Of a DNA stretch of 64,000 bases, positions 1,185-61,193 are shown one piece after another (position 1 is the first letter of the stretch; each line of letters starts with the position of its first letter). A program made the translations under genes and the position numbers. Origin of the DNA: Hormiphora californensis (lineage: Eukaryota; Animalia; Ctenophora); assembly GCA_020137815.1 (NCBI GenBank), contig CM035362.1:6014001-6078000 (forward strand). Direction: 5' to 3'. The notes below the pieces were generated by a model that worked only from the letters and a program-made list of their open reading frames with translations, searched no databases and was not told the DNA's origin.

Positions 1185-4100
1185 CTGTGTGATTGTATCT
1201 CTTTTGTCCATGATGGCCCTCATTGCAGCAGCGTTAACCAACCTCTCCAGCTTGGCCCCTGATATAGAAAGAGGTGGTTGAAAGTGAGGGGGGGGAGTTT
1301 GAACACGTCGGTAAGAGGGGTAGAACACGGTCAATTGGTACAGACCTGTCATTCCAGGACACCCAATTGCTAGTTGTCGAAGGTCCACATCCTCATCAAG
1401 TGGTTTATCACGGGTGTGAATCTTCAGAATATCAACAATACTCTAAAAAGAGGAGGAGAGTTTTAATTAGACTAGGATGACAATGTTGAGTGTCGATTCA
1501 GCACGAGAGATCTCAATCGATCTAATTAAGAACCGAGAGCAGCAACAAGTTGGAACCAACTTGTTTCACTCGGTTAAACTAGGATGAATATAATGGCAGA
1601 GATTGAATACTATGGGGGGAATACTATTCAGAATTATAGTGTCAATTTATTTGATTTAGTACCATTATATCGTTGTCTATCTTGTTAATATAGTGGGTGG
1701 GCTTTAGCCTTTAGAATCTCCAGAGTGTGATTTATACAGTATAAAATTAACAGATAGAATGACGTGGCTTGGCAAAATGAATTTTACCTCAAAAAGGTGA
1801 GGGGCTAGCATCATGATTCATGATAGTTTACCTCAAGGGACGGTGGTGTAATAGCAATTTTAGTATCAAACCGGCCCTCCCTTAGTAGTGCGTCATCCAG
1901 GGACTGGTGGTCGTTCGTTGCTGCTATCACAATCACATTAGATGTATCGTCAAATCCTGGAATACGGTTGTGAAAACCAGTGAACTTAGATGTGATTGGT
2001 TTTGGAGAACTCCGATTGTAGTCATCATCCGATACTACCATATATGGGTATAACCTGTCATTCCCATATATGGACATCACAATATCACATATCACTATGC
2101 TCACCATCCATACAAGATAGCAACTGGTTTAGTGTCATCCTATTGGAGTATCCCACTTCATTTAACTTTCTCTTCTGGCCAATGGAATCAATCTCGTCAA
2201 TGAATATGATTGAGGGAGAGTTCGCTATAGCATCCTGGTGTTAGGGAGTTGTTGTTAGGGAGTTGTTAGGGAGTCAATGAATATAATGGAAGGAGAGTTG
2301 GCTATTGCATCCTGAAACGGAATTCTGTGATCCCTCGAGCAGATCCTAAAGGTCCTCCCAAACTACTATGTCCCTTGCTGCGCGCGACCGGATTTTAGAC
2401 GGCCATAGCTCCACCCCCTGATAAGCTAGAGACTTGAAATTTGTTTTGTAGGGAGATCATATCGAGTTCTTCGTACAAAACAAATTACAAGTCTCTATCT
2501 CATCAGGGAGTGGAGTTATGACCGTGGGAAATTTCACAAAACCCGAGTGAGGGACATAGTAGTTTGGGGAGTACTTTAATGCATACTGTACTATTTTATC
2601 TGTTGCTAAACTAACCAAAAACCCGGAGCTACAACTGCTGATAAAGATCATGCCCAAGTTGGGGAAGGGGGGGGGCAGCCCAACCCCCCTAAGGAGGATT
2701 ATGATCCCAATATATAATTGTACCTCCACGATATCTGGAACTATGTTAGACTGGGGGGGGGGGACATTTTTATTGCCCCACACGGTATAATACCTCAAAC
2801 AATTTCCTGACTCGACCAGCTCCTACGCCCACAAAAACTTCCTCAAATCCACTGCCAGATGTATGATAGAAAGGAACGTTGGCCTCCCCAGCTAGCGCCT
2901 TCGCCAGGAGAGTCTTTCCGCAACCTAGATGGGAATTGTTGTTAGAGAGTTTTAGGGAGTTGTTGTTAGGGAGTTTTAGGGAGTTGTTAGGGAGTTGTTA
3001 GGGAGCTGTTAGGGAGTTGTTGTTAGGGAGTTTTAGGGAGTTGTTAGGGAGCTGTTGTTAGGGAGTTGTTGTTAGGGAGTTGTTTCTTGTGATGGACAAG
3101 AAATTGCCTTGCTCGACCCTGTCTCATATAAAAACATGGGTTCAACAACCGCAACCTGTCAATGGAAACAGTTAAAACTTGATGAACTATATGATGGTCT
3201 AAATGGATCAAGATAACTAAACCCCATATCTTGGTACTTGGTAATTAATTAATTAATTACGGAGGAGGAGGGCAATTAATTACCGGGTGGTCCGGAAAGA
3301 AGGTAACCCTTTGGAATAGCTAGCACCCCATATCCTGGTACTTCTCAGGGTGCACCAGGTACCCCACAAGGTGCTCCAATTCTTCTTGGCGTGCTCGTTG
3401 CCTGGATATTAGTAATGATAATTAGTGGTAATTGATGTATAATTAGTAACATTAAGTGCTAATCAGCGATAATTATTGATTAAAAAAGTGCTCATGAGTG
3501 ATACTGAAACATGAACACTGAAGTAACAGAACTAAAATAATATAGAGTAACCCCCATGATGTGATAAAATGCTCCAATTAACTAATTAATTAATTAATCA
3601 ATTAATTACTCAATTATTTAACTAATTAGCAACTCAATTTACCGGCTACATCATCAAATGTGACATCAGGAGTCGTCACCTCGTAACTCCCCTCTTCAGT
3701 CATTAGAGATGAGAGGGATCCCCCAGAGCCACCTGACTGATGACTGTAAACATACACAAGCATTCCTGGGGGGATGTTACTGTAAACATAAACAAGCATT
3801 CCTGGGGGGGGGGGATGTTAAATGTGAACTCTAAAGGTTTGTTTCTATCATGAGAAGATAATACACCCCACATACACACACATGTGCCACCTTGTATATG
3901 GGGAAACTTGCTAACATAACAACAAGGGGGAACGAGCAACGAGGGATGTTGTGGGATGATGCTAAATTAGGTCTTGTGGATATTACATAGTGGTTAGAAT
4001 TTAATAAGAAACGGAAATCAATAGATATACGGCCTATGGGTAACTAAAATTAAAATTAATTGGTTAAGATAAATAAACAATTTCAATAATTATACTCCAT

Positions 4101-61100: not shown

Positions 61101-61193
61101 GATCTCGTAATAATGAAAATCCCCATCGCTGAGAGTTATGTAACAACACTTATCTCGTGTCCTAACCCATCTAAAGTTATGTAGGTCGTCCAT
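43109..61193 (-). CDS. MIOS: GATOR2 complex subunit MIOS (WD40 repeats, solenoid, C-terminal zinc-binding region)
   Basis: Exons give WD40 repeats (IAWSPH...IFDIR; VKLWDTR; FSWHP), ALSGY...WRK...NPYRRAMFNFL, EDRILFGCRYL...EGNIRAVILTG, YLDRTSDVQT, CKKPLPRCSLC, WFVWCLACGHGCHSDHMADWFR|EHKVCPTPGCWCKC, collinear with MIOS/Sea4. Confidence 0.92.
45261..45302 (+). other. Genomic copy of the ctenophore trans-spliced leader exon, fused to the LINE 5' UTR
   Basis: gtttcaaacttttcaacactactttaaacaaattaatttgag matches the Hormiphora/Pleurobrachia SL as I recall it (not database-checked). It is not followed by a GT donor. Confidence 0.8.
45489..46778 (+). CDS. LINE ORF1 (gag-like, zinc knuckles)
   Basis: 429 aa with QCFHCQRFGH...C, CAFCTGDH..C and CVNC...H motifs. 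Confidence 0.88.
   Translation: MSGVATHDVIMCRNDMEGKLLATSYSDRCKGASILQSIKDDAVEPPSGASKAVLWTMVKELYGLLPETRRISTHSSESVTSFTADDLRDTLDKLKEDLLSTLPDLVAPKVSKILAPSSDQLAIHAVNRTGSAQETVTPVTPIKRYLTIKDKGEEGPMCEKKWTTVVKTKVEKALNKIPVLDLSVTKRRTNLMFETDEQLEQAKEVLSPFLDVSPVVEKEKKRDPRIMINDLDQDLLEKDRLLSEIVSDKNESVKRLVGEGHLVKVVHVNRTGRYAVFQVSPEVRKAISERKDKLFLKLRQHSVRNRFYVTQCFHCQRFGHVAGSIYCPNKDKSPVCAFCTGDHDTRSCHAKKENVVSRMKCVNCDHGGSREDKRHAQSHPASSSMCPFYVNAKGRLMESTSGVTKQEKNVYLTRAWEDLRGKRLGGLAH
46733..49708 (+). CDS. LINE ORF2 (APE endonuclease plus reverse transcriptase)
   Basis: GTLNVHS, VQET, GDFN, THVRGGTLDL, SDH; NYRPVSNL, LDMSAAFDTVDH, GVPQGSLLGP, YADD. Confidence 0.95.
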   Translation: MGGSERKTSWRIGTLNVHSVMNKTSGVITHLEEKGCDICLVQETYLKQSDTAKLQEIRDYGWNIFSSPRAERSGGGIGILYRDGVKLKYTPVKAKFKSFQVQEALIGGGKDVTRLCNIYRPPYTGKARFTEAQFLDEFTDYLSELVCKTGNPILMGDFNFQVQDTQNFYAKKLLGLLDSLGFDQRVPLQPTHVRGGTLDLLLCQKDRYSKVQSVEVFPDGTTSDHFLVLAELCIETVASEYKTREKVDMYRDFKAVDIEILRCAFRSVDWSEAMESGSAEEVLCIYMRKLEELVDRTVPLKRRKKRGAKLRPWRDNPEVRQVLRQRRNAERAWENNKTSVTKKQFNELKRQFGRVDKEARTNYVKEDLEESRDDPKALQRKLNRLLGNTETFMPETTDKRRLADDFADFFVGKVDKIRSTVIGEKNLRTKRNPIHQTPVCCFEEFEEVSPEKLKRIIKDMPDKTCDLDPIPTWLVKGCMHELAPVLCRFINLSLGCSSVPELLQQALVFPTIKNPYGDKDTLTNYRPVSNLSFVSKLLEKIVLEQLNSYLNENELLNKHQSGYRVNHSCETLLMGMFDDLLRDMDEGKVAGLFRLDMSAAFDTVDHGKLLEVLEERFGVKGSVLDWFANYLQMRTYRVNVEGELSRIVSLICGVPQGSLLGPVLFLLYVEELQDLVKPYGLRIKLYADDSQLYISFVPTDEENWKLAKKRTEEYLLSVKEWMSEHWLKCNEAKTEFLLLGKNSALDKMVYQPTVDFGGVEISPVDFTGSTGKTLGVFLDSNLSMERQINSVKRQCGLLLKNLWQVNRCLDRSTKILLVKQLIISRLDYCNILYHGLPKKLLNSLQRVLNSCVRFVYGLHGHQDTYMPYLKELHVLPVEQRVTFKACLMAYKIVHGLAPDYLQDQVPVDDGLHVIRATRGNAWPDGLKLKYPKLSSVNATSKLRRRRPSVYLPEVWNRLPLDLRAVESVESFKSKLKTSLFTEAFGETGLSS
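49980..51099 (+). mobile_element. Non-coding insertion (Helentron/DINE-like) in the LINE 3' UTR, itself containing a MITE (50105-50354)
   Basis: Separates the LINE body from its tail. Begins actagagtacccg and ends cagactgact...ttattatatggat. Inner TIR tagtaggagcggttagatca. Confidence 0.5.
52045..52351 (-). repeat. Nine 33-bp copies of MIOS exon end plus donor, in frame
   Basis: (AMFNFLKAE|GTRAGA)n. Confidence 0.95.
54210..58480. other. Homopolymer-saturated, probably unpolished or low-quality assembly inside a MIOS intron
   Basis: Consists almost entirely of runs of A, C, G or T. Garbled relics of the 40-bp donor repeat at ~54470-54800 and ~58250-58400. Confidence 0.85.
58708..59348 (-). 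repeat. ~16 copies of a 40-bp MIOS exon end plus donor
   Basis: GAAATGGATGACTTTGGTGTNYTAGAACAG|GTGAGAGAGA. Confidence 0.95.

What the first reader, a model, noticed from the sequence alone, without database searches (positions are those of the whole stretch)
1185..61193. Window-wide system: splice junctions are duplicated into introns in several unrelated genes
Seen: donor-anchored copies at ~4865, 8212-9455, 16680, 18461-19335, 20660, 21150-21370, 41750-41810, 43790-43865, 52045-52351, 52645-52860, 53165 and 58708-59348. Acceptor-anchored copies at 2274-2318, 7160-7260, 10600-10640, 14805-14845, 19985, 20445, 20940-21050, 36535-36600, 41510, 42480-42680, 43643 and 51815-51915. Each array has a unique sequence derived from its own junction, so they are not one TE family. 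Inference: a mutational process focused on exon-intron borders (e.g. spliceosome/R-loop or nucleosome-edge breaks repaired with tandem duplication), or survival bias because a junction-spanning duplication leaves the mRNA intact. Either would seed new splice sites and introns. I am not aware of a description of this at such density.
Basis: partly seen in the sequence, partly recalled or inferred. Interest (0 to 1): 0.85.

Follow-up and report, generated by a model that had tools for sequence, protein, structure and literature searches.

The report
Comb jelly mirage repeats archive alleles
In this comb-jelly sequence about one predicted exon edge in five is copied, splice signal included, into the neighbouring intron, a repeat type already known from lancelets as "mirages", and the copies differ from the gene mostly by silent changes, which likely means they were taken from other alleles by recombination between the two chromosome copies.

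Summary
The observation mostly holds. Homology-based models give five ctenophore genes (two YME1L/FtsH-like, MIOS, MED10, a Sushi gene). 18 of 82 junctions carry a copy; a zinc-finger cluster has 0 of about 18. Against a survival-only null the excess is about twofold (18 vs 8-9 of 36 events, P 6e-5 to 5e-4) and vanishes if ancestral introns were about 100 nt. The feature is known: amphioxus "mirages", human F7 VNTR. This scan met it before in urchins, abalone and annelids. Not found in print: the exon-derived parts of the copies differ at 24 synonymous vs 6 non-synonymous sites (22-27% synonymous expected; wrong frames 3 and 2 of 30), and among copies alone at 10 vs 4. Untranslated copies should not show this. 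Best reading: tandem duplications survive at exon edges and are repeatedly re-seeded from working exon ends of other alleles by misaligned inter-homolog recombination. Not shown: splice-site use in RNA, most arrays in raw reads, spliceosome-targeted breaks, intron gain.

The parts
1185..6069 (-). Gene A, YME1L/FtsH-like AAA protease, runs off the window; six 3' exons modelled (3401-1185), 5' exons uncertain
   Evidence: tblastn; model; frameshift near 3320
2273..2314 (-). Copy of the gene A acceptor at 2234 (3 intron + 39 exon bases); 5 of 5 differences synonymous
6912..22121 (-). Gene B, second YME1L/FtsH-like gene, 14 exons, 582 codons without a stop; 11 of 26 junctions carry a spanning copy
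7158..7336 (-). Acceptor array of gene B exon 14 (28-nt unit, 5 exon bases)
7799..8062 (-). Dispersed 264/264 copy of the gene B exon 13 donor (90 exon + 174 intron bases), 2523 nt from the original
8212..9456 (.). 35-nt x 36 minisatellite in gene B intron 13, not tied to any modelled exon
10583..10634 (-). Copy of gene B exon 13 acceptor, 33 nt upstream
14743..14864 (-). 61-nt x 2 across gene B exon 11 acceptor; exon part identical over 30 nt, intron part differs
16682..16740 (-). Copy of gene B exon 10 donor, 43 nt downstream
   Evidence: X3 contig 16344-16719
18459..19386 (-). Donor array of gene B exon 7: 8 copies of a 100/121-nt unit (51 exon bases); 8 synonymous, 2 non-synonymous variants; about four unit lineages
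19854..20022 (-). Copy of gene B exon 6 acceptor, with a transposon-like fragment between the copies
20410..20455 (-). Copy of gene B exon 5 acceptor
20640..20795 (-). Copy of gene B exon 4 donor (37 nt, 119 nt away)
20874..21052 (-). 69-nt x 2 plus a partial copy across gene B exon 4 acceptor
21154..21390 (-). Donor array of gene B exon 3 (4 copies)
36316..42489 (-). MED10, 3 exons
   Evidence: Pfam Med10 E 2e-17; open frame
36533..36608 (-). Edge-only copy of the MED10 exon 3 acceptor (AG, no exon base)
40278..41747 (+). Sushi-domain gene nested in MED10 intron 1, six exons modelled, 3' end not found
   Evidence: Pfam Sushi E 0.002, under cut-off
41510..41574 (+). Edge-only acceptor copy (17 intron + 1 exon base)
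41747..41810 (+). Edge-only donor copies starting at the GT
42481..42684 (-). 34-nt x 6 array across the first acceptor and start codon of MED10
43109..61208 (-). MIOS (GATOR2 subunit), 17 exons, one terminal stop; exon 6 acceptor garbled at the edge of the noisy tract, exon 8 acceptor chosen for frame
   Evidence: Pfam MIOS_a-sol and zinc_ribbon_16 partial hits
43575..43710 (-). Two copies of MIOS exon 16 acceptor; another gene model (P0121) also holds the duplicated peptide with a shorter spacer
43791..43866 (-). 13-nt x 6 array starting at the GT of MIOS exon 15 donor (edge only)
51815..51913 (-). 30-nt array across MIOS exon 11 acceptor (3 copies)
52041..52384 (-). 33-nt donor array of MIOS exon 10 (9 copies, in frame)
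52644..52890 (-). 38/48-nt donor array of MIOS exon 9 (5 copies; inner donors closer to consensus than the outer one)
53165..53240 (-). 38-nt x 2 across MIOS exon 8 donor; 2 of 2 differences synonymous
58710..59378 (-). 40-nt donor array of MIOS exon 5 (15 copies); 4 synonymous variants, 2 adjacent non-synonymous ones in a single copy

Best explanation
These are short tandem copies of predicted exon-intron borders ('mirage' minisatellites) whose exon-derived parts differ mostly at silent sites, likely because they are repeatedly re-seeded from the working exon ends of other alleles by misaligned recombination between homologous chromosomes. Step 1 (shown in sequence): duplications of 13-264 nt cover exon edges, with the working junction outermost. 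Step 2 (inferred; shown in human F7 and amphioxus): the spliceosome keeps using the outer site, so these duplications survive while exon-internal ones are purged. Step 3 (inferred): each copy is homologous to the exon end on the other chromosome, so gene conversion or unequal exchange moves allelic exon ends into the array. The copies' lineages would then have spent most of their history as working exons. Step 4 (inferred): this refreshes homology, so junction arrays keep expanding and stay detectable longer than plain intronic duplicates, which would give the twofold excess.
For: 24 synonymous vs 6 non-synonymous distinct differences over 484 exon positions; 22-27% synonymous expected, P 2e-9 or less; P 3e-5 or less even if the working exon also drifts at silent sites; wrong frames give 3 of 30 and 2 of 30. 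8 of 9 events with a difference lean synonymous; without the largest array 16 vs 4, P 7e-4 under the stricter null. Among copies only: 10 vs 4, P 0.002. Variable sites among copies: third positions 10 of 51, first/second 3 of 99, intron parts 8 of 49 (first/second vs intron P 0.006; third vs intron P 0.8). Alleles differ this way: a second haplotype in run X3 differs from gene B exon 10 at 5 listed sites, all synonymous. Two sites have three states (19366, 59358), more than one diploid's two alleles. Units of 40 and 100/121 nt put copies out of frame, so direct translation is unlikely. Inter-allelic conversion drives most human minisatellites (PMC2599865, passages). The related H. californensis has about 3.2% heterozygosity with many non-coding indels (PMC8527503, passages). 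Outer-site use: PMC1557585, PMC3087553.
Against: The among-copy signal rests on two arrays (13 of 14 variants). No copy variant was matched to an allele of a working exon: the letter table was cut (452 rows not shown). Nine of the 18 events compared have copies identical in their exon part, which fits plain same-molecule duplication. The excess over the survival null falls to P 0.085 with introns capped at 100 nt, and to P 0.058 with the uncertain 5' part of gene A and a 150-nt cap. Event list, masks and exon models were curated by hand. The assembly has a 4.3-kb noisy tract next to one array.
Confidence: 0.6

Rival explanations
1. Same-molecule tandem duplication (slippage or end-joining of staggered nicks) at random places, filtered only by survival. 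Silent differences come from ordinary allelic exchange of the working exon after the copy was made.
For: The survival null already predicts 8-14 of 18 events. Clean units have 0-4 nt breakpoint overlap. Many copies are identical to the exon. In three arrays all copies differ from the working exon at one shared site.
Against: It does not predict silent-biased variation among copies (10 vs 4; 3 of 99 first/second vs 10 of 51 third positions). The observed count is about twice the null at measured intron lengths.
Confidence: 0.2
2. Breaks are targeted to splice junctions by the spliceosome, R-loops or nucleosome edges, and repaired with duplication.
For: Twofold excess over the survival null. Four more arrays start at the GT/AG and four lie within 12 nt of a junction in the core set. 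None in the zinc-finger cluster.
Against: It does not explain the synonymous bias. Similar duplications cover a start and a stop codon. The excess is sensitive to intron length.
Confidence: 0.08
3. Assembly or polishing artefact: false duplications from two haplotypes, or reads of the other allele written into the copies.
For: 54250-58600 is homopolymer noise (58% of bases in runs of 4 or more vs 9% elsewhere). The 264/264 dispersed copy. Allele-like differences are what merged haplotypes would give.
Against: Three states at two sites and about four unit lineages in one array. An X3 contig holds the 16682 copy without differences (possibly the source sample, so not independent). An unrelated gene model, P0121, also holds the duplicated MIOS exon 16 start, with another spacer.
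Confidence: 0.07
4. The copies are used as alternative splice sites or cassette exons and are under direct selection on the protein.
For: The synonymous bias itself. The exon 7 unit is a 51-nt in-frame block with AG before and GT after; the 33-nt MIOS array is open.
Against: No frame preference (6 of 22). Reading on past the outer donor of the 40-nt array meets a stop within the first unit. The 51-nt block would repeat a stretch inside the AAA domain.
Confidence: 0.05

Closest known systems
Amphioxus 'mirages' (Adh3, globins BflGb6/BflGb9, troponin C, PGBD5): PMC3087553 and PMC3902484, passages read; original Canestro et al. 2002 not held
   Same: Minisatellite-like tandem duplications of both 5' and 3' intron-exon borders, each from its own gene, units 10-160 nt, found in several loci of a marine invertebrate; proposed as a route to intron gain.
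   Different: Here in a ctenophore and at 18 of 82 junctions. The passages read call the mechanism unclear, and PMC3087553 holds no 'synonymous', 'third codon' or 'gene conversion'. Splicing and length instability were tested there, not here.
Human F7 IVS7 37-bp VNTR; also CBS IVS13, 6-16, LMNB2, PDGF (PMC1557585, abstract and passages)
   Same: First unit spans the exon-intron border, so the donor is repeated; the most upstream donor is used.
   Different: Isolated cases, donors only, few exon bases in F7 (4); here many junctions of both kinds per gene.
Intron gain by tandem duplication (Rogers model; PMC3265369, first quarter of the text; potato RdRp, PMC4974935, passages; Drosophila, PMC2891723, passages)
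   Same: Duplicated splice signals inside a gene that leave the protein intact.
   Different: Those create a new intron; here copies extend existing introns and no new intron is shown.
Inter-allelic conversion at human minisatellites (PMC2599865, abstract and passages)
   Same: Repeat units are exchanged between alleles by non-reciprocal germline events.
   Different: Here the inferred donor is a working exon end, which leaves a silent-site signature.

Membership tests
Mirage minisatellites | Tandem unit spans an exon-intron border and derives from that gene's own junction | tested here: met
Mirage minisatellites | Both 5' and 3' borders are affected, in several unrelated loci | tested here: met
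   9 donors and 10 acceptors in four genes
Mirage minisatellites | Normal splicing uses the outer site | tested here: inconclusive
   Outer sites give open frames matching homologues; no transcript was seen
Mirage minisatellites | Length or structure differs between haplotypes | tested here: inconclusive
   P0121 has a shorter spacer at the exon 16 copy and reads through where the window's 13-nt array gives a stop; read tables were cut
Mirage minisatellites | Somatic instability | not testable with these tools
   needs single-molecule typing
Intron gain by tandem duplication | A new intron bounded by duplicated AG|GT, absent from orthologues | tested here: not met
   All copies extend existing introns; AG|GT in 7 of 11 copied donors vs 25 of 43 overall; no orthologous gene structures were compared
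Transposable element or introner family | One sequence family repeated at unrelated sites | tested here: not met
   Each array matches only its own junction

The most novel reading that the evidence does not exclude
In highly polymorphic genomes the exon edge is where homologous chromosomes stop matching, and repair between homologues that starts in the exon and ends in the unlike intron itself creates mirages. Each array is then an archive of working exon-end alleles, readable from one genome, and this explains why mirages crowd hyperdiverse marine invertebrates.
Probability: 0.3. Interest if true: 0.7.

Novelty: new member of a known kind. Interest (0 to 1): 0.5.

Why it matters
Mirages have been known for two decades, with the mechanism called unclear in the one review passage read (PMC3087553). 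The silent-site bias gives a simple genome-wide test of their origin: if untranslated copies carry the imprint of protein-level selection, they came from working alleles. It also extends mirages to ctenophores, implies that their spliceosome ignores inner sites even in short introns, and warns that such copies can mislead gene prediction (two public gene models read on into these introns).

Tried and rejected
No whole genome is held, so the genome-wide test was not possible. No RNA holder listed; run X7 covered no gene B exon; neither is evidence on expression. at 85% likeness was swamped by repeat contigs (47,044 pieces, 452 letter rows and 90 joints not shown). An X6 contig (19252-19470) reaches only 14 nt into the first exon 7 copy and an X5 contig (16693-16854) 5 nt into the 16682 copy; both are under the 31-letter rule and not counted. 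A homologue search with the largest MIOS exon found nothing; one with a gene A exon gave no ctenophore orthologue among the 120 listed, so the 5' exons of gene A stay uncertain. No nested exon was found by eye for the 8212 array. Rejected: one transposon family; frame selection on copies; AG|GT preference. Left out of counts: microsatellites, transposon-like tracts, nested genes, the noisy tract, the MED10 first acceptor (no bounded intron; out of the null and, being partly untranslated, out of the synonymous test), and one difference beyond the 33-nt unit's breakpoint (52380). Paper searches for a ctenophore case or a synonymous signature; none found. The original mirage paper (PMC117041) is not held and may already discuss silent changes. 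Supplements were not opened; the mirage alignments in the supplements of PMC3087553 may bear on this.
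Full report
Setting. The window is eukaryotic. Exon 19330-19572 hits P0002 at 99% identity and a Mnemiopsis leidyi protein at 70%. The label style of P0002 is, from recall, that of Pleurobrachia bachei gene models, so this is a Pleurobrachia-type ctenophore. 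No whole genome is held.

Gene models. tblastn with five ctenophore-like FtsH proteins shows that 22121-6912 is one YME1L-like gene (gene B) and 6069-1185 a second (gene A). Gene B joins into 14 exons and 582 codons without a stop. 61208-43109 is one gene, MIOS (partial Pfam hits to MIOS_a-sol and zinc_ribbon_16; homologues), with 17 exons and one terminal stop. One of its acceptors is garbled at the edge of a noisy tract and one was chosen for frame. MED10 (E 2e-17) and a nested Sushi gene complete the set. No transcript supports these models. The 5' exons of gene A are uncertain.

Observation. A uniform scan for local direct repeats found the arrays, with none in two shuffled controls. Anchoring on each junction gave the copies base by base. 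I add a 264/264 copy of the exon 13 donor, 2523 nt away. Counting bounded introns only, 18 of 82 junctions carry a spanning copy (this set includes the extra copy and leaves out the MED10 first acceptor). The zinc-finger cluster has 0 of about 18, counted by eye (Fisher P 0.037).

Is it more than survival? I collapsed extra copies, masked transposon-like tracts, nested genes, microsatellites and noise, and placed each of 36 events at random among the places that leave the mRNA intact. Expected 8.0, observed 18, P 6.5e-5 (median collapsed intron 182 nt). With introns capped at 250 nt: 9.2, P 5e-4; at 150 nt: 11.3, P 0.007; at 100 nt: 14.0, P 0.085. Adding the uncertain 5' part of gene A (44 events) gives P 9e-4, 0.006, 0.058 and 0.36. 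So the excess is about twofold and depends on ancestral intron length. First-copy distances are divisible by 3 in 6 of 22 cases. Copied donors end in AG in 7 of 11 cases against 25 of 43 modelled donors. Neither points to use of the inner sites or to intron birth.

Over 484 exon positions covered by copies there are 30 distinct differences from the working exon: 24 synonymous, 6 not. Random change would give 22-27% synonymous (P 2e-9 or less). If the working exon also drifts at silent sites the expectation is 36-43% (P 3e-5 or less). The two wrong frames give 3 of 30 and 2 of 30. Eight of 9 events with a difference lean synonymous, and dropping the largest array leaves 16 vs 4. Among copies alone the count is 10 vs 4 (P 0.002), but 13 of these 14 variants come from two arrays. 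In five multi-copy donor arrays, variable sites among copies are 10 of 51 third positions, 3 of 99 first/second positions and 8 of 49 intron-derived positions. Third positions vary like intron; first/second positions are depleted (P 0.006). The exon 7 array holds about four unit lineages, each with its own silent pattern and intron start.

Reading. Copies with 40-nt and 100/121-nt periods fall out of frame, so they are unlikely to be translated. A neutral copy should change at all positions. The depletion therefore suggests that the copies' lineages diverged mostly while they were working exon ends, that is, as alleles. Alleles do differ this way: a second haplotype in run X3 differs from exon 10 at five listed sites, all silent. 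I infer misaligned conversion or unequal exchange between homologues that moves allelic exon ends into the arrays. Inter-allelic conversion is the main mutation route of human minisatellites (PMC2599865, abstract and passages), and the related H. californensis is about 3.2% heterozygous with many non-coding indels (PMC8527503, passages). Whether the first duplication also arose between homologues, or only later exchanges, cannot be told here. Nine of the 18 events compared have copies identical in the exon part.

Artefact check. 54250-58600 is assembly noise, so caution is due. Against an artefact: two sites have three states, more than one diploid's two alleles; an X3 contig holds the 16682 copy without differences, bridging one of its edges by the 31-letter rule (X3 may be the source sample); and P0121, a gene model that differs from the window, has the MIOS exon 16 start twice with a shorter spacer. 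Most arrays were not seen in reads.

What is known. The scan's earlier notes pointed to amphioxus 'mirages', which I checked in PMC3087553 and PMC3902484 (passages): tandem duplications of 5' and 3' borders in several genes, normal splicing kept, length instability, mechanism called unclear, proposed as a route to intron gain. Human F7, CBS, 6-16, LMNB2 and PDGF carry donor-spanning minisatellites, and F7 uses the most upstream donor (PMC1557585, abstract and passages). More tandem repeats near junctions were reported for green algae (PMC3887541, abstract). The scan has noted the same pattern in urchins, abalone, annelids and fishes, once as a window-wide finding. Ten paper searches gave no ctenophore case and no report of a silent-site bias, and two look-ups in the scan's notes gave none either. 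The original mirage paper was not available.

Verdict. A real, dense example of a known repeat type in a new phylum, with a modest excess over survival bias and one apparently unreported clue to mechanism. Novelty: new member of a known kind. Interest 0.5.

Noticed in passing
window 45261-45302: 42 bases identical by eye to the ctenophore spliced-leader sequence printed in PMC8527503, directly at the 5' end of a 4.4-kb LINE-like element (identified by eye) in MIOS intron 11, with a tRNA-like stretch just upstream. It may be a retro-copy of a trans-spliced LINE RNA or a leader gene.
   Followed up: partly
window 54250-58600: Homopolymer-rich noise (58% of bases in runs of 4 or more); near 54534 it resembles a degraded form of the 58710 array unit. 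Probably an unpolished long-read stretch.
   Followed up: partly
window 3315-3325: Gene A has a frameshift with an in-frame stop in the exon before the Walker A motif: an assembly error, a null allele or a pseudogene.
   Followed up: no
window 62354-62483 and 32798-32945: Duplications across a start codon (TIM-barrel isomerase-like gene, 31 nt, 99 nt apart) and across a zinc-finger stop codon (39 nt, flanking a short interspersed element). Coding edges without a modelled splice site show the same pattern.
   Followed up: partly
window 2239-2274 and 2931-3084: The same branch-point-like 11-nt minisatellite precedes two consecutive acceptors of gene A, about 800 nt apart; the shorter one fills the gap between the 2234 acceptor and its copy, like a templated insertion.
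   Followed up: partly
window 44315-44346: An 11-nt array before MIOS exon 14 matches by eye the pyrimidine tract of the exon 13 acceptor 170 nt away.
   Followed up: no
window 15192-16190: Single-exon homeobox gene nested in gene B intron 10 on the same strand, with a 36-nt coding repeat; an X6 contig skips 114 nt of it.
   Followed up: no
window 10795-13590: About 2.8-kb element with long inverted arms built from an 11-nt repeat (fold-back type) in gene B intron 12; a fragment of its end lies between the acceptor copies at 19854-20022.
   Followed up: no
window 22670-35700: Six tandem C2H2-like zinc-finger genes (by eye), with a LINE-like insertion at about 27130-29470 and 29-39-nt duplications flanking a short interspersed element.
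   Followed up: partly
window 5507, 5849, 6769-6912, 18540-19320, 43269-43426: Recurrent palindromic 14-nt motif in several unrelated arrays, resembling the RFX X-box (motif recalled, not tested).
   Followed up: no
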